From a phage: a stretch of DNA of 64,000 nucleotides. Of this stretch, positions 10,090 to 22,131 are shown in pieces; the first letter of the stretch is position 1; every line of letters starts with the position of its first letter. The stretch lies in NCBI GenBank assembly GCA_014685065.1, contig GCA_014685065.1_4092.2. The stretch is one strand, 5' to 3'. Position numbers and translations under genes: made by a program. The notes under the pieces were generated by a model, which did not search any database, was not told where the DNA came from, and saw only the letters and a program-made list of their open reading frames with translations.

Positions 10090-10473
10090 AATACAGTACT
10101 GGCAACTCCACCGTCTGTAATATTTTGTCCAGTACTGTAAATTTGTATACCATCGGTTAAGTAAGTTCTGTATAAAGTTGCTGTAACATATACGTTATTC
10201 ATCTCTATTGGTAGTACACATTTGGTATAGGCCGACGCATCGGTTTGTGTACCTATACCTAATTGTCTTGTGTTATAACCAGTTGAGTAAACACCTAATA
10301 AAGTTATAATATGATTAGAAAAATATTAATAACCCAAACTATTGAGAACCTCTACTGTACAACGTACCATCTGACATAAGGGCAAAAACTGTCTTATCAG
10401 ATGAAGCTATTTTTGTAACAGAAGGTTGTATGTTCTTTTTTGATGATGTGATAATTCTTCGAAAGGGTAGCAT
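10090..10473 (-). pseudogene. truncated RCC1-like paralog retaining intact MLPF leader (45-aa ORF then decayed frame)
   Basis: minus ORF reads MLPFRRIITSS..LYSRGSQ then stop; downstream frame still reads beta-rich ..YSTGQNITDGGVASTVFVK. Confidence 0.4.
10094..10137. terminator. inverted repeat CAGTACTGG...CCAGTACTG between convergent genes
   Basis: 9-bp arms read directly; ~26-nt loop, so weak as a terminator. Confidence 0.3.
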
Positions 10474-10510
10474 TGTATCCTCCAAATGTAAATCGTTATT
10501 ATATTTAGGA

Positions 10511-10537
10511 CAAAAAATGCCAGTACAAGGCACTGGC
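10511..10537 (-). terminator. intrinsic terminator GCCAGTGCCTTGTACTGGC + T-run
   Basis: read on reverse complement. Confidence 0.55.
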
Positions 10538-10544
10538 ATAAAAT

Positions 10545-11714
10545 CTAAGCAGAAGGCATATCCTTCATCTTAATAAATGAAAATTGTGTACCAGTATTTG
10601 TGGTTTGATCAGTAAAATATGAATTACTACCAGCCCAGTACAATTCATTATTGACTATACAATATATAACAGAACTCGAACTCTGTGAATACACACGACT
10701 TATATTTGATTGTTCTACTCCAGTACTGAACTGAACTACTCCCAACTGTGAACTTGGTATTACATTAGTTGGTCTACCTAAACCGTTAACACCCGCTCCA
10801 CCACCACATGTATATACTCCAGTACTATCAGTTGATATATTAACATAACCATTTCCAGCATTTTCAAATAGTATTTCACTGGGAACAACACCAAATCCTG
10901 TAAGATCTATTTTCCTGAATGTAGTATAAACCGTAGAACCGCCAACACCTCTTCCACCATAATCATTAGAACCAGCCATATAGATACTATATCCAGAACT
11001 TCCTAAACATAATAACTGTACGTTGTCATATAATATTTGCATAGATATAACGTTATCAGGAATACTCAATACCGTAAAAGTAGTTAAAGAAGAACTTCCA
11101 ATATTACTACCAACCGATGTTCCACATCTGTAGTACTTACCGCCTTTTATATAATGGAACGATGAACCGCCTAACTTATGTGCTCCTATTGCACTTACCC
11201 CAGTATCTATAAGAATGGGAGATACAACTTTGTTATTAACACCTAACTCAGATCTACTGTTCATACCGAACCCATATAAACGACCATCTAACATCAATAT
11301 TAGTGTACTACCGGAAGTACCCGCTGACGTAAATTCTATATTCTTTATTTGCGACACGTCAATACCTACAAATAATGAAGTTACTTCAGTCCAGTTAACA
11401 TATGAACCACTAGCCCCAAAATATCCACCCATGTATAGACCTGCACAATATAATTTATTATCAACAGTCTTTATTAATGTACCGGATACACACGCCCAAA
11501 AATCATCAACTTCATAGGGTACATGTACCCAACCACCTAATACATCACTAGCATCCCCTGTACCTAATTTATAGTTCGAACCAGAACCACGCATGTACAT
11601 ATTCCCTGTACTATAAAGTAATCCGACATGTAATTGACTACCATCCAATTTCTTTATTTCAGGAAGAGTTGGTTTAATATTTCCGTACTTTAACATTCTT
11701 CCAAAAGGTAACAT
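10545..11714 (-). CDS. RCC1-like beta-propeller repeat protein with MLPFGRM leader
   Basis: ORF track; repeated G-x-N-x-x-G-x-x-G blades; SD GGAG. Confidence 0.75.
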   Translation of the reverse strand: MLPFGRMLKYGNIKPTLPEIKKLDGSQLHVGLLYSTGNMYMRGSGSNYKLGTGDASDVLGGWVHVPYEVDDFWACVSGTLIKTVDNKLYCAGLYMGGYFGASGSYVNWTEVTSLFVGIDVSQIKNIEFTSAGTSGSTLILMLDGRLYGFGMNSRSELGVNNKVVSPILIDTGVSAIGAHKLGGSSFHYIKGGKYYRCGTSVGSNIGSSSLTTFTVLSIPDNVISMQILYDNVQLLCLGSSGYSIYMAGSNDYGGRGVGGSTVYTTFRKIDLTGFGVVPSEILFENAGNGYVNISTDSTGVYTCGGGAGVNGLGRPTNVIPSSQLGVVQFSTGVEQSNISRVYSQSSSSVIYCIVNNELYWAGSNSYFTDQTTNTGTQFSFIKMKDMPSA

Positions 11715-11724
11715 AATTTTCTCC

Positions 11725-19740: not shown

Positions 19741-19804
19741 ATTCCCTCCTTTATTTGTTATACTATATTTAATACAAATAAGAAAGCCAGTACAGTGTAC
19801 TGGC
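19741..19804 (-). promoter_or_regulatory. array intergenic terminator/promoter cassette
   Basis: hairpin 19786-19804 + conserved block. Confidence 0.5.
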
Positions 19805-19810
19805 ATTATG

Positions 19811-20920
19811 TTATTTTGGTAAATCAATTTTAGTAAAGACTGCAACATCCTCGATTGCACCTGGAATGGCGTAATACGATCCAGTACTATACACATCTCC
19901 ATTTTTGGTTAATATCGATGTCAAACCATCACTAAAAAGAACATCCCTAATCTCACTAACTTCAACGGGTAATTGTAAATTGGTAGCACTATATATAGCA
20001 CCAGTTTGAGAATTGTTTAATCCCAAACCACGGTTCGCCCCAACACCCTTCTGATATGTACTAGTAATTACCATTTGTGTAGCAGTATTTAAGGCAGGTG
20101 AATTCGTCATAAACAATGGAGAACTATTAGGCAAAGTACTTACAGGAACTGCACGGAATGTAGTCGTACCTGAACTAAGAAAGTTTGGAGTTTGACCACA
20201 TACGAAATATGATGTACCATTATAGTAATTTAATGCATTACCACCAATGGCTGCATCGATTACACCAGAACTACGCAATCCCCAAGTGTTAATTTGTGTT
20301 TGGTTCCCCGTACCATGCTGCCCACTACTATTCCATCCAGAACTATATAGCTTATTATCTAATGTAAGATACATACTATCATTCGCATTGGTCATTACTT
20401 TACGAACGTTCGTAGCACATTGAGTTAATGTGTAAATTGATGAGGAACCAATACCCAAAGAACCACGATATCCATTATCTCCTGCACCATAGAGTACTGA
20501 ATTAGTGCTAAGTACAAATATTAAACCATTTGTACATACAATATTAGCAATTTCACTTACTGGTATAGCATTGGTAAACCAATTAGTTCTTTCAACTAAT
20601 ACAGTACTGTAAGAAGTAGTTGTAGAAGATGAGAACCAGTACGTTTGACCTGATGTCCATATCGTATTATCATTTTTAATAATAACAAGTGTACGATCAC
20701 CCACGAAAAAATTAGAAACATCTGCACTTACTAATGTCCACGAAGACACCGTGTTGGTATTACCATTTCCAGATTCACCACCTTGATTTCTACCTATGTA
20801 ATATAAATCATGTGAATCAGTCAATAAGAATTGGCCTTGGGTAGAAGCACCAACTTTAATTATTTTTTTAGGACCAGGGACAATATTTCCATACCTAATC
20901 ATTCTTCCAAAAGGTAACAT
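19811..20920 (-). CDS. RCC1-like beta-propeller protein with MLPFGRM leader
   Basis: ATG at 20918-20920 after AGGAGGG. Confidence 0.75.
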   Translation of the reverse strand: MLPFGRMIRYGNIVPGPKKIIKVGASTQGQFLLTDSHDLYYIGRNQGGESGNGNTNTVSSWTLVSADVSNFFVGDRTLVIIKNDNTIWTSGQTYWFSSSTTTSYSTVLVERTNWFTNAIPVSEIANIVCTNGLIFVLSTNSVLYGAGDNGYRGSLGIGSSSIYTLTQCATNVRKVMTNANDSMYLTLDNKLYSSGWNSSGQHGTGNQTQINTWGLRSSGVIDAAIGGNALNYYNGTSYFVCGQTPNFLSSGTTTFRAVPVSTLPNSSPLFMTNSPALNTATQMVITSTYQKGVGANRGLGLNNSQTGAIYSATNLQLPVEVSEIRDVLFSDGLTSILTKNGDVYSTGSYYAIPGAIEDVAVFTKIDLPK

Positions 20921-20928
20921 ATTCCCTC

Positions 20929-22131
20929 CTATTGTTGCCATAACTGCGTTGGCATTAATGTTAGTGTAGTAATACTATAAGTACCATTAGGTAATCTACC
21001 ACCATTTCCATTCCAGCCACCACATGCATATAATTTATAATCTTTAGTAATTATTATGGTTCTGCTCCAATCTTTAGATGCCATAAGAACATTGTCATAA
21101 CCACCACTTATTGCACTAAGATTAAAAATATTCCAAGTTCTAACTAATGTATTAGTTCCATTACCTTCTTGACCATATGAGTTAGCACCACTACTTCTAA
21201 CATATGGTGCGTATTGTGCCATAGGTGCACCAATTGATGCATTTCCCATATTACTTGGACAAATAAAAGTACTGTACTTACTTACATCAACCGTGACCGA
21301 TGTGTTCCTAATTGGTGTTAGCTGATTTACCGATGTAGTCGTACCATTACCAGCTTGTCCAGTACTGTTAGCCCCGCTATAATATACAGACCCACCAGTA
21401 GTAAACCACCAAGTAACATCGTATGTAGTACTAATATGTTCTACATTACTAATCACGAATTTGTTCAAATATACAACAGAACTACCACCACATCCACTTT
21501 CACCAAAGTTATCCTTACCACAAAACCATGCATCTTTATTTGATTTGATATAGTGCGTTCCTTGTAATGAACATGCCATATGTGTAACTTCACCCATATT
21601 AGTCATAACTGTGAGTGTAGGGATGGAATTTTTATTACCAGAGCCACATTCACCATTGGTATTTCTTCCACACGCAATTACTCTACCATCGGTTAATAAT
21701 ATTCTAGTACTTTCACCTATATATACACTCTTGATCATATTAGCCATAACACCTATTTTATTAAATGCAACAGTAACATCAGTCCATGTTGTCAAATAAC
21801 CATTAACAGGTGTTGCATCTCCATAATCAGAAAATGCACCAACCGACCCAGTGTAGTATATTTTATTATCCAAATCAATCATCAATGAACCTTGAACACC
21901 AAGCCAAAAGGCTGCACAGTTCCTTGCAAGTACTGTAAATGACGAAACTGCTGCTGAATTCCCAAGACCAAATTGATAAAAGTTATTACTACCATAACCA
22001 TATAAAGTATTAGTTGGGTTATGGAGATACATACAGTTTGTATAATGTTGTTGTAAAACATCTGAGAACTCTACAGGTTCTGGACCTGGTGCAATATTTG
22101 CGTACTTAACCATTCTTCCAAAAGGTAACAT
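20929..22131 (-). CDS. RCC1-like beta-propeller protein with MLPFGRM leader
   Basis: ORF track; motifs GANSTGQAGNG, GANSYGQEGNG. Confidence 0.75.
   Translation of the reverse strand: MLPFGRMVKYANIAPGPEPVEFSDVLQQHYTNCMYLHNPTNTLYGYGSNNFYQFGLGNSAAVSSFTVLARNCAAFWLGVQGSLMIDLDNKIYYTGSVGAFSDYGDATPVNGYLTTWTDVTVAFNKIGVMANMIKSVYIGESTRILLTDGRVIACGRNTNGECGSGNKNSIPTLTVMTNMGEVTHMACSLQGTHYIKSNKDAWFCGKDNFGESGCGGSSVVYLNKFVISNVEHISTTYDVTWWFTTGGSVYYSGANSTGQAGNGTTTSVNQLTPIRNTSVTVDVSKYSTFICPSNMGNASIGAPMAQYAPYVRSSGANSYGQEGNGTNTLVRTWNIFNLSAISGGYDNVLMASKDWSRTIIITKDYKLYACGGWNGNGGRLPNGTYSITTLTLMPTQLWQQ

What the first reader, a model, noticed from the sequence alone, without database searches (positions are those of the whole stretch)
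10090..22131. Array of 11 RCC1-like beta-propeller paralogs that all begin with the same ~15-aa leader MLPFxRMVKYGNI(A/K)P
Ten full-length minus-strand genes plus one truncated copy share an almost invariant N-terminus (MLPFGRMVKYGNIAP, MLPFARMMNYGNIAP, MLPFGRMIRYGNIVP ...), while the ~370-aa bodies are highly divergent and built from repeated G-x-N-x-x-G-Q-x-G blades typical of RCC1-like propellers. A conserved short N-terminal tag on otherwise diversified paralogs suggests a shared targeting or attachment signal: by analogy to the capsid-targeting sequences of T4 internal proteins, or to conserved virion-attachment N-termini of receptor-binding proteins. Four copies are translationally packed; six carry their own terminator/promoter cassette. 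I do not recognise this leader-plus-propeller family.
Basis: partly seen in the sequence, partly recalled or inferred. Interest (0 to 1): 0.85.

Follow-up and report, generated by a model that had tools for sequence, protein, structure and literature searches.

The report
Shared N-terminal tag on virion proteins
A giant E. coli phage carries a tandem array of very different binding-type proteins (mostly beta-propellers) that all start with the same 12-residue peptide, which most likely plugs them into the virus particle and marks where gene cassettes are swapped; this argues against their usual label of "DNA condensation proteins".

Summary
Window 10090-22131 (minus strand) holds ten genes starting MLPFxRMxxYGN plus one decayed remnant. 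Eight are full-length RCC1-like propellers and one is a frameshift-truncated propeller. One (15312-16049) is a glycine-rich "brush" protein, not a propeller. The window comes from an Asteriusvirus-type jumbo coliphage, where this array is known and annotated "DNA condensation/RCC1". I found no description of the leader in the papers searched.

Best reading (0.55): a short virion-docking peptide on interchangeable host-binding modules. Main rival (0.2): a T4-like capsid-targeting sequence, although no conserved cleavage site exists. This is a new variant of a known kind.

The parts
20929..22131 (-). Leader gene 1: RCC1-like seven-bladed propeller, 400 aa (leader codons 22087-22131)
   Evidence: ORF and leader. 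Pfam WD40_RLD 2.8e-30, RCC1 2.7e-10. AF2 pLDDT 89.2 with residues 1-15 below 50. Foldseek UVR8/HERC2/RCC1.
19811..20920 (-). Leader gene 2: RCC1-like propeller, 369 aa, translationally coupled (leader 20876-20920)
18601..19740 (-). Leader gene 3: RCC1-like propeller, 379 aa (leader 19696-19740). The mechanical ORF list extends it upstream to 19902.
   Evidence: The SD GGAGGGAATATG sits at the 19740 ATG.
17381..18529 (-). Leader gene 4: RCC1-like propeller, 382 aa (leader 18485-18529)
16122..17309 (-). Leader gene 5: RCC1-like propeller, 395 aa (leader 17265-17309)
15312..16049 (-). Leader gene 6: glycine-rich 'brush'/TNF-like protein, 245 aa, NOT a propeller (leader 16014-16049)
14066..15241 (-). 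Leader gene 7: RCC1-like propeller, 391 aa (leader 15197-15241)
12915..14057 (-). Leader gene 8: RCC1-like propeller, 380 aa, coupled (leader 14013-14057)
12095..12904 (-). Leader gene 9: frameshift-truncated RCC1-like propeller, 269 aa, coupled (leader 12860-12904)
   Evidence: The same 269-codon ORF is annotated in G17, SP27, 121Q and phAPEC6. phAPEC6 gp007 was seen in virions.
11725..12129 (-). Out-of-frame (+1) continuation of gene 9: 134 further codons of RCC1 repeats (IHGQLGNG...)
10545..11714 (-). Leader gene 10: RCC1-like propeller, 389 aa, coupled (leader 11670-11714)
10090..10473 (-). Decayed remnant of an eleventh RCC1-like gene with a degenerate leader MLPFRRIITSSK, multiply frameshifted
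   Evidence: An intact 298-aa version is annotated in 121Q gp234 and PBECO4.
19786..19804 (-). Terminator-like hairpin GCCAGTACnnnGTACTGGC followed by a T-run (cassette)
18576..18594 (-). Terminator-like hairpin (cassette)
17356..17374 (-). Terminator-like hairpin (cassette)
16096..16114 (-). Terminator-like hairpin (cassette)
15286..15304 (-). Terminator-like hairpin (cassette)
10519..10537 (-). Terminator-like hairpin after gene 10 (one mismatch)
19758..19775 (-). A/T-rich late-promoter-like box GTATTAAATATAGTATAA (core TAAATA)
   Evidence: Resembles the ATAAATA late motif predicted for CBB/GAP32 structural genes (PMC5259590).
18548..18565 (-). Late-promoter-like box
17328..17345 (-). Late-promoter-like box
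16068..16085 (-). Late-promoter-like box (1 mismatch)
15259..15276 (-). Late-promoter-like box (2 mismatches)
22149..22165 (-). Variant box GGTAAATATGATATAAC upstream of the first gene of the array

Best explanation
The first ~12 residues (M-L/I-P-F-x-R-M/I/L-x-x-Y-G-N), followed by a proline-rich linker, form a short linear docking peptide. It lies outside the folded domain. It attaches whatever body follows it to a common site on a conserved structural protein of the virion, most likely on the outside (the tail, baseplate or fibre apparatus, or the fibre-anchoring sites seen on these 'hairy' phages). The bodies are ligand-binding modules: RCC1 and Kelch propellers, ConA-like lectin domains, and a polyglycine 'brush' adhesin-type domain. 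They would act as accessory host-binding heads. The array is expressed late, from T4-like late-type promoters in the repeated cassette. At the DNA level, the nearly identical leader plus the terminator/promoter/SD cassette supplies repeated homology. Bodies are swapped, duplicated, deleted and reordered between related phages at these seams. SHOWN: the shared tag on unrelated folds; its protein-level conservation; its predicted disorder; the fold identities; breakpoints at the leader. FROM THE LITERATURE: virion association. INFERRED: that the tag is what mediates incorporation; the external location; the identity of the docking site; the role in host binding.
Against: There is no direct evidence that the tag mediates incorporation, and none on where the proteins sit. 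MS coverage is low (1-5 peptides). The phAPEC6 'structural proteome' also lists probable contaminants such as thymidylate synthase, RecA-like protein and SSB, and the fENko-Kae01 sample was only ultrafiltered. Beta-propellers are usually monomers, whereas classical RBPs are trimers. No docking partner was identified. In PVP-SE1-type phages the Gly-rich homolog sits among replication genes, not tail genes. The hairs of CBB are about 119 nm long and cannot be built from 25-45 kDa globular proteins. These phages have T4-like head morphogenesis and an inner body, which keeps internal targeting plausible. Within Asteriusvirus the codons of the leader are frozen, so part of the conservation seen in this window is at DNA level.
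Confidence: 0.55

Rival explanations
1. Capsid-targeting sequence. The leader directs the proteins into the prohead core, as in T4 internal proteins and Alt. They would be internal, possibly ejected cargo (anti-defence or host-takeover), diversifying in an arms race.
For: [quoted passage not shown] That is the same genetic pattern as here: a hyperplastic array with a conserved short N-terminus. These phages have a T4-like prohead scaffold and protease and a visible inner body. The proteins are in virions at low abundance. Breakpoints at the leader parallel what is known for the T-even IP locus (my recollection of Repoila 1994, cited).
Against: No position-conserved Glu or (L/I/V/M)-x-E or (S/A/G)-x-E site follows the leader; at most 15/113 proteins share a Glu at any position. 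In T4 such a protease site ends the CTS. The leader has no similarity to the T4 CTS (MKTYQEFIAE, from my own knowledge). The bodies are 25-75 kDa rigid beta-propellers, lectin folds and a tail-fibre-type brush domain, which are atypical for proteins that must pass through a tail tube. They are near-neutral in charge.
Confidence: 0.2
2. Nucleic-acid-level feature only. The conserved 5' coding stretch is kept because it is part of the duplicated promoter/SD/initiation region (translation efficiency, or a recombination and gene-conversion tract), and the peptide itself has no function.
For: Within Asteriusvirus the leader codons are frozen (TTA 52/52, CCT 52/52, AGA 51/52). Leader DNA identity among the ten window genes is 89%. 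The SD and spacing are also conserved. Recombination breakpoints coincide with the leader.
Against: In other genera the same amino acids are encoded by different codons. The leader is kept in coupled genes whose upstream DNA is unrelated. P3 and F4 are invariant in 113/113 proteins across genera whose DNA no longer aligns.
Confidence: 0.07
3. The current database annotation. These would be RCC1-type 'DNA/chromosome condensation' proteins that organise the packaged genome or build the inner body, with the leader being incidental.
For: The RCC1 fold is real. The phAPEC6 authors proposed this on the basis of eukaryotic RCC1 and the inner body. PHROGs and GenBank carry the label.
Against: The label is transferred from the fold name only. 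The same tag and array position are occupied by Kelch, lectin and Gly-rich adhesin-type bodies that have no link to DNA. The proteins are near-neutral (pI 5.1-9.2, net charge about 0). The best structural match is UVR8, not RCC1 itself. Abundance is low for a 91 x 18 nm inner body.
Confidence: 0.05
4. An assembly or quality-control tag. The peptide would be recognised by a phage chaperone, protease or modification enzyme (for folding, timing or turnover) rather than by the virion itself.
For: It is a disordered, conserved N-terminal linear motif. Tail-fibre-type proteins often need dedicated chaperones (PMC9608196 abstract).
Against: One chaperone would be unlikely to serve 11 unrelated folds. 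Virion presence in four phages suggests a structural destination. No candidate partner gene is conserved inside the arrays.
Confidence: 0.06

Closest known systems
Short N-terminal 'conserved (docking) peptide' of secondary receptor-binding proteins in branched RBP systems (KP32 gp38, K11, KP34; K1-5/K1E/SP6; inferred for PhiK64-1/RaK2)
   Same: A peptide of 7-29 residues at the extreme N-terminus is shared by otherwise different virion proteins of one phage group and is sufficient and necessary for attachment (PMC6872550, PMC13352976). It is lineage-specific in sequence. The genes lie in tandem arrays that exchange bodies. RaK2, a relative of this phage, uses the principle with other peptides.
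   Different: The bodies here are mostly monomer-type beta-propellers and lectin domains, not trimeric beta-helix depolymerases. The copy number is far higher (10-15 genes per genome on one tag). No T4gp10-like branching partner has been identified. Attachment itself is untested.
Capsid targeting sequence (CTS) of T4 internal proteins IPI-III and Alt, and the hyperplastic IP locus of T-even phages
   Same: A roughly 10-residue N-terminal tag is shared by unrelated, fast-evolving proteins packaged in the virion. The locus is mosaic between close relatives, with the tag as the constant element (PMC3012670).
   Different: There is no conserved protease site after the tag and no sequence similarity. 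The bodies are large binding-type folds rather than small compact inhibitors. One body is of tail-fibre type.
Polyglycine-rich 'brush' adhesin modules: Pam3 tail fibre gp24, S16/T2-type gp38, Bxb1 wing brush gp33 (PF21722-related)
   Different: The attachment element here is the 12-residue MLPF tag instead of an alpha-helical bundle. Pfam's own model does not reach significance on this protein. Homologs in other lineages carry different N-termini, such as MLELL/MIELL.
RCC1-like domain propellers (RCC1, UVR8, HERC2 RLDs); 'regulator of chromosome condensation' genes annotated in Asteriusvirus, GAP32, Munch and others
   Same: A seven-bladed RCC1-repeat fold. It is the same gene family already annotated in 121Q, PBECO4 and phAPEC6.
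   Different: Nothing links the phage proteins to Ran-GEF activity or chromatin binding. They are virion-associated, carry a phage-specific N-terminal tag and are interchangeable with non-RCC1 bodies.

Membership tests
RCC1-like domain (seven-bladed propeller; Pfam PF25390/PF00415/PF13540) | Significant matches to RCC1-repeat profiles | tested here: met
   Nine of ten leader proteins hit WD40_RLD at E 4.7e-15 to 1.6e-31, several also above the RCC1/RCC1_2 cut-offs. The tenth (15312-16049) has none.
RCC1-like domain (seven-bladed propeller; Pfam PF25390/PF00415/PF13540) | Seven-bladed beta-propeller fold | tested here: met
   AF2 model of 20929-22131: pLDDT 89.2, pTM 0.88. Foldseek UVR8 E 1.8e-24, TM 0.73-0.82; HERC2, RPGR and RCC1 also match. 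Only one paralog was modelled.
RCC1-like domain (seven-bladed propeller; Pfam PF25390/PF00415/PF13540) | Chromatin/DNA binding or Ran-GEF activity (the basis of the 'DNA condensation' label) | not testable with these tools
   Only indirect evidence: near-neutral charge and interchangeability with non-DNA folds.
T4-type capsid targeting sequence (CTS) cargo | Short N-terminal sequence shared by otherwise unrelated proteins of one phage | tested here: met
T4-type capsid targeting sequence (CTS) cargo | Conserved prohead-protease cleavage site ending the tag ((L/I)-x-E in T4) | tested here: not met
   At most 15/113 proteins have Glu at any one position. (L/I/V/M)-x-E occurs in the first 40 residues of 38/113 proteins, at scattered positions.
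T4-type capsid targeting sequence (CTS) cargo | Location inside the capsid and ejection with the DNA | not testable with these tools
   Virion MS does not resolve location.
RBP 'conserved docking peptide' systems | Short N-terminal peptide conserved among different virion proteins within a phage group and differing between groups | tested here: met
   The MLPF tag is found across Rak2-like genera. RaK2 RBPs use other peptides. Gly-rich homologs in other lineages use other N-termini.
RBP 'conserved docking peptide' systems | Tagged proteins are receptor-binding or host-interacting virion-surface proteins | tested here: inconclusive
RBP 'conserved docking peptide' systems | A partner with a branching/docking domain (such as T4gp10-like) that binds the peptide | not tested
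   No multimer prediction tool was available and whole genomes were not screened.
RBP 'conserved docking peptide' systems | Deleting the peptide abolishes incorporation | not testable with these tools
   Requires an experiment. The precedent is in KP32.
Polyglycine-rich 'brush' / PF21722 glycine-rich domain proteins (for 15312-16049 only) | Sequence membership in PF21722 | tested here: inconclusive
   No Pfam hit on the window protein at E<=0.1. Many of its homologs at E 1e-16 to 1e-7 carry a precomputed PF21722 assignment.
Polyglycine-rich 'brush' / PF21722 glycine-rich domain proteins (for 15312-16049 only) | TNF-like sandwich plus Gly-rich lattice fold, as in Pam3 gp24 | tested here: met

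The most novel reading that the evidence does not exclude
The MLPF peptide is a universal 'plug' for one class of docking socket on giant-phage virions. Ten to fifteen different binding modules per genome, drawn from a pool of at least 70 body types and 11 folds, compete for the same sockets. Each particle would then display a mixed, possibly stochastic, set of propeller, lectin and brush adhesins, giving combinatorial bet-hedging in host or environment adhesion. The tag plus cassette would double as the recombination joint that reshuffles the set. This would also give the 'hairy' or decorated appearance of these phages a molecular handle, and would provide a natural 12-residue display tag for engineering jumbo phages.
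Probability: 0.2. Interest if true: 0.8.

Novelty: new variant of a known kind. Interest (0 to 1): 0.6.

Why it matters
Hundreds of genes in jumbo-phage records are labelled 'regulator of chromosome condensation' or 'DNA condensation protein' purely from the fold name. The shared tag, the unrelated bodies that carry it and the tail-fibre-type member argue instead for one family of tag-addressed virion accessories, probably adhesins. If so, three things follow. First, it gives a concrete, testable handle on how Rak2-like giant phages decorate their particles and tune adsorption. Second, it explains why this locus is the main mosaic region between near-identical phages that differ in host range. 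Third, it offers a 12-residue tag that might load foreign proteins onto or into a jumbo phage. It also exposes annotation problems that hide the pattern: start codons called too far upstream, and the Gly-rich gene missing from at least one record.

Tried and rejected

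
Full report
WHAT IS THERE. Window 10090-22131 is the only minus-strand block in the window. It holds ten ORFs whose products begin MLPF-x-R-M-x-x-Y-(G/A)-N, with ATGs at 22131, 20920, 19740, 18529, 17309, 16049, 15241, 14057, 12904 and 11714. An eleventh copy at 10473 has a degenerate head (MLPFRRIITSSK) and is broken after 44 codons. 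The leader DNA ATGTTACCTTTTNNWAGAATG occurs ten times against none expected. Among the ten proteins, residues 1-12 are 83% identical on average, while the bodies are 28% identical (range 21-38%). In the propeller alignment, 6 of the 10 invariant columns lie in the first 12 residues.

Six genes are preceded by a repeated cassette. Its full form is a hairpin GCCAGTACnnnGTACTGGC with a T-run, an A/T box GTATTAAATATAGTATAA, and the SD AAAGGAGG. The first gene (22131) has only a variant box and no hairpin. Four genes are tightly coupled and lack the cassette but keep the leader.

CORRECTIONS. Nine of the ten are RCC1-like (Pfam WD40_RLD E 1e-13 to 1e-31). The gene at 15312-16049 is not. It is a glycine-rich protein with no Pfam hit. 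The 269-aa gene (12095-12904) is a frameshifted full-length propeller. After ...YGVGSQN the RCC1 motif IHGQLGNG resumes in the +1 frame and runs 134 codons to 11725. The 10473 copy is a multiply frameshifted remnant.

WHERE IT COMES FROM AND WHAT WAS KNOWN. The region matches Asteriusvirus jumbo coliphages (G17/Sharanji 99.6%, SP27 98.4%, PBECO4, 121Q, phAPEC6), but no record covers more than 62% of it. In those records the genes are annotated 'regulator of chromosome condensation' or 'putative DNA condensation protein'. The phAPEC6 paper notes eleven RCC1-like genes and speculates that they build the DNA-organising inner body (PMC7247149). The CBB paper lists the paralogs of 121Q and PBECO4 and states that GAP32 gp001 (RCC1-like) is an MS-verified structural protein (PMC5259590). 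None of the papers I could search or read mentions the shared N-terminus. These were phAPEC6, CBB, JP4, fEgEco12, fENko-Kae01 and a 2026 jumbo-phage review. So the array is known, and the leader appears not to have been described.

THE LEADER IS A MODULE, NOT PART OF THE PROPELLER. A tblastn search with the leader finds it in 61 phage records, all Rak2-like jumbo phages of Escherichia, Salmonella, Erwinia, Yersinia, Cronobacter, Serratia, Pectobacterium, Xanthomonas and Klebsiella. I fetched syntenic arrays from 12 of them and scanned all frames. This gave 127 leader genes, 113 of them non-identical. M1, P3 and F4 are invariant. R6 is present in 95, Y10 in 105, G11 in 96 and N12 in 103 of the 113. 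Entropy rises sharply after position 12, with Pro frequent at 15 and 17.

The bodies are heterogeneous. They include RCC1 propellers, Kelch propellers (CBB_550/552/554, XbC2_590/585) and an RCC1+Kelch double propeller of 688 aa (XbC2_591). They also include Laminin_G_3/ConA-like lectin domains (CBB_548/551, XbC2_582/584, Munch_534), a ~220-aa family (phrog_6011, 'virion structural protein'), Gly-rich proteins, and several with no assignment. By BLAST they form about 70 clusters at 50% identity and 11 unlinked superfamilies. A variant head, MLPFPIISN, coexists with the main type in Serratia phage BF and in XbC2.

PROTEIN-LEVEL VERSUS DNA-LEVEL CONSERVATION. Outside Asteriusvirus the conserved residues are written with different codons: P3 uses CCA 39, CCT 12, CCG 9 and CCC 1; R6 uses AGA 24, AGG 16 and CGT 3; F4 uses TTT 51 and TTC 10. 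The peptide is therefore under selection as a peptide. Within Asteriusvirus the codons are frozen (CCT 52/52, TTA 52/52, AGA 51/52). That points to DNA-level homogenisation on top of the protein-level constraint.

The reason shows up in a megablast of the window array against G17, SP27, 121Q and PBECO4. Every internal downstream end of a block with >=90% identity (9 of 9) lies 36-51 nt into a leader gene, exactly at the leader/body junction. Upstream ends lie 9-96 nt before a leader ATG, in the cassette. Blocks are permuted in 121Q, and G17 has extra genes. The leader plus cassette is thus the seam at which bodies are replaced, duplicated, lost and reordered. Array size ranges from 10 genes here to 12 in G17 and SP27, 12 or more in phAPEC6, and 15 in Munch.

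STRUCTURE. AlphaFold2 with a 17-row alignment gives the 400-aa protein (20929-22131) a confident body (mean pLDDT 89.2, pTM 0.88). Residues 1-15 fall below pLDDT 50. The fold is a seven-bladed RCC1-type propeller, closest to UVR8 (E 1.8e-24, TM 0.73-0.82), followed by HERC2 RLDs, RPGR and RCC1.

Pam3 gp24 is described as an N-terminal attachment segment plus a TNF-like domain plus a Gly-rich domain, and is likened to the S16 gp38 adhesin (PMC9942802). Brush domains are regarded as anti-receptors (PMC13243795). Bxb1 gp33 hangs on an accessory tail wing (PMC12646305). Homologs of the Gly-rich body in other phage lineages carry different short N-termini, such as MLELL/MIELL. The head is therefore specific to the lineage, not to the body.

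VIRION ASSOCIATION (literature). phAPEC6 Table 1 lists gp003, 005, 006, 007, 009, 010, 549 and 551, with 1-5 peptides and 3-17% coverage. The JP4 LC-MS/MS data list JP4_577, 581 and 582, whose sequences carry the leader. In CBB, proteins 537, 548, 549, 551, 552 and 553 are MS-based 'structural proteins'. GAP32_001 is another. ENKO_525c, a Gly-rich protein with a GTG start, is flagged as LC-MS/MS-detected, but that sample was only ultrafiltered. One caveat applies to the phAPEC6 list: it also contains probable contaminants such as thymidylate synthase and SSB.

MECHANISM. I commit to the following, at 0.55. The 12-residue head plus Pro-rich linker is a docking peptide. It attaches interchangeable binding modules to a common site on a conserved virion protein, most likely externally. 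The genes are expressed late from the cassette, whose core TAAATA resembles the ATAAATA late motif predicted for CBB and GAP32 structural genes.

The closest documented mechanism is the 7-29-residue 'conserved peptide' that docks secondary RBPs onto a branching domain. It was modelled for many Klebsiella phages, including the Rak2-relatives PhiK64-1 and RaK2 (PMC6872550). It has since been validated by deletion (PMC13352976). In the 50 kb of RaK2 that I examined there is no MLPF gene. Its RBPs fall instead into two other N-terminal peptide families: MxNxLIQPKGSVSKE (gp526, 527, 529, 530) and MSLSNLSSSN (gp531-534).

The main rival, at 0.2, is a T4-type capsid targeting sequence (PMC3012670). 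It fits the genetics equally well. It is weakened by the absence of any position-conserved cleavage motif, by the body types, and by the tail-fibre-type member. A purely nucleic-acid explanation (0.07) is contradicted by the synonymous variation. The 'DNA condensation' reading (0.05) rests only on the fold's name, and the proteins are near-neutral.

WHAT IS SHOWN AND WHAT IS INFERRED. Shown here: the tag, its statistics, its presence on unrelated folds, the codon patterns, the predicted disorder, the fold identities, and the breakpoints. Taken from papers: presence in virions, docking-peptide precedents, CTS precedent, and the late-promoter motif. Inferred: that the tag mediates incorporation, that the location is external, that the bodies bind host or environmental ligands, and that recombination (rather than divergence alone) produces the mosaic.

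NOVELTY AND SCORE. The array and the RCC1 fold are already known. What is new is the recognition of a cross-fold, cross-genus 12-residue N-terminal tag with cassette seams, together with the reassignment from 'DNA condensation' to tag-addressed virion accessories. I found no description of it in the literature I could search. It is a new variant of a known kind: short N-terminal addressing peptides on modular virion proteins. Interest is 0.6.

Noticed in passing
window 12095-12904 and 11725-12129 (minus strand): The 269-aa leader gene is a propeller truncated by one extra base in a 4-A run (about 12126-12129), and the +1 frame carries 134 more RCC1 codons. The same truncation is annotated in G17, SP27, 121Q and phAPEC6. 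The 30-kDa product (phAPEC6 gp007) had the best MS coverage of all paralogs (17.5%). Whether a +1 frameshift product is also made is unknown.
   Followed up: partly
window 22233-26093 and 46519-52430 (plus strand): Long runs of back-to-back tiny ORFs (about 59-96 aa), many overlapping by a few bases. They look like tandem arrays of small, probably early, genes. G17, SP27 and 121Q annotate equivalent strings of hypothetical proteins.
   Followed up: no
window 22181-22209 (plus strand): A perfect sigma70 consensus (TTGACA-17-TATAAT, 12/12) sits in the divergent gap between the leader array and the small-ORF block. It is probably an early host-RNAP promoter driving the plus-strand genes.
   Followed up: no
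window 18601-19902, 14066-15277, 19811-20941; also JP4_581, P0122, PBECO4 AGC34966: Open frames extend upstream of the true ATG through the conserved cassette (for example ...ICIKYSITNKGGNMLPF...). Several public records therefore call starts 3-54 codons too early (the mechanical window ORFs are 7-54 codons longer than the true genes; JP4_581 has 27 extra and P0122 36 extra), burying the leader inside the protein. This probably helped the shared N-terminus go unnoticed.
   Followed up: partly
L001 (phAPEC6) 7325-8059: The Gly-rich leader gene is intact in phAPEC6 but not annotated there. Only a 100-codon ORF, gp004 at 7716-8018, is called. It could therefore not have been found in that paper's virion MS search.
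   Followed up: partly
L004 (Serratia phage BF) and L012 (Xanthomonas phage XbC2): Two leader classes coexist in one genome: MLPF-x-R/Q-...-YGN and MLPFPIISN(T). The second class is also found in Yersinia fHe-Yen9 and Erwinia SNUABM phages. This may mean two docking sites or partners.
   Followed up: partly
L013 (RaK2) 26765-49683: RaK2's depolymerase/RBP genes fall into two N-terminal peptide families: MxNxLIQPKGSVSKE in gp526/527/529/530 and MSLSNLSSSN-like in gp531-534. This is the same tag-plus-variable-body design as the MLPF array, but with different tags.
   Followed up: partly
L018/L019 (PVP-SE1-type phages, ~146 kb): The same three body types (Gly-rich 280 aa, Laminin_G_3 202 aa, RCC1+Big_2 604 aa) occur scattered among replication genes, without a common N-terminal tag.
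   Followed up: partly
window 10090-22131 versus all 37 matching phage records: No database phage has this exact array; the best record covers 62% of it. The part from 9001 to 17385 is G17-like (99.7%). The part from 15203 to 22176 is SP27-like (98.9%). The source phage therefore carries a recombinant cassette set.
   Followed up: partly
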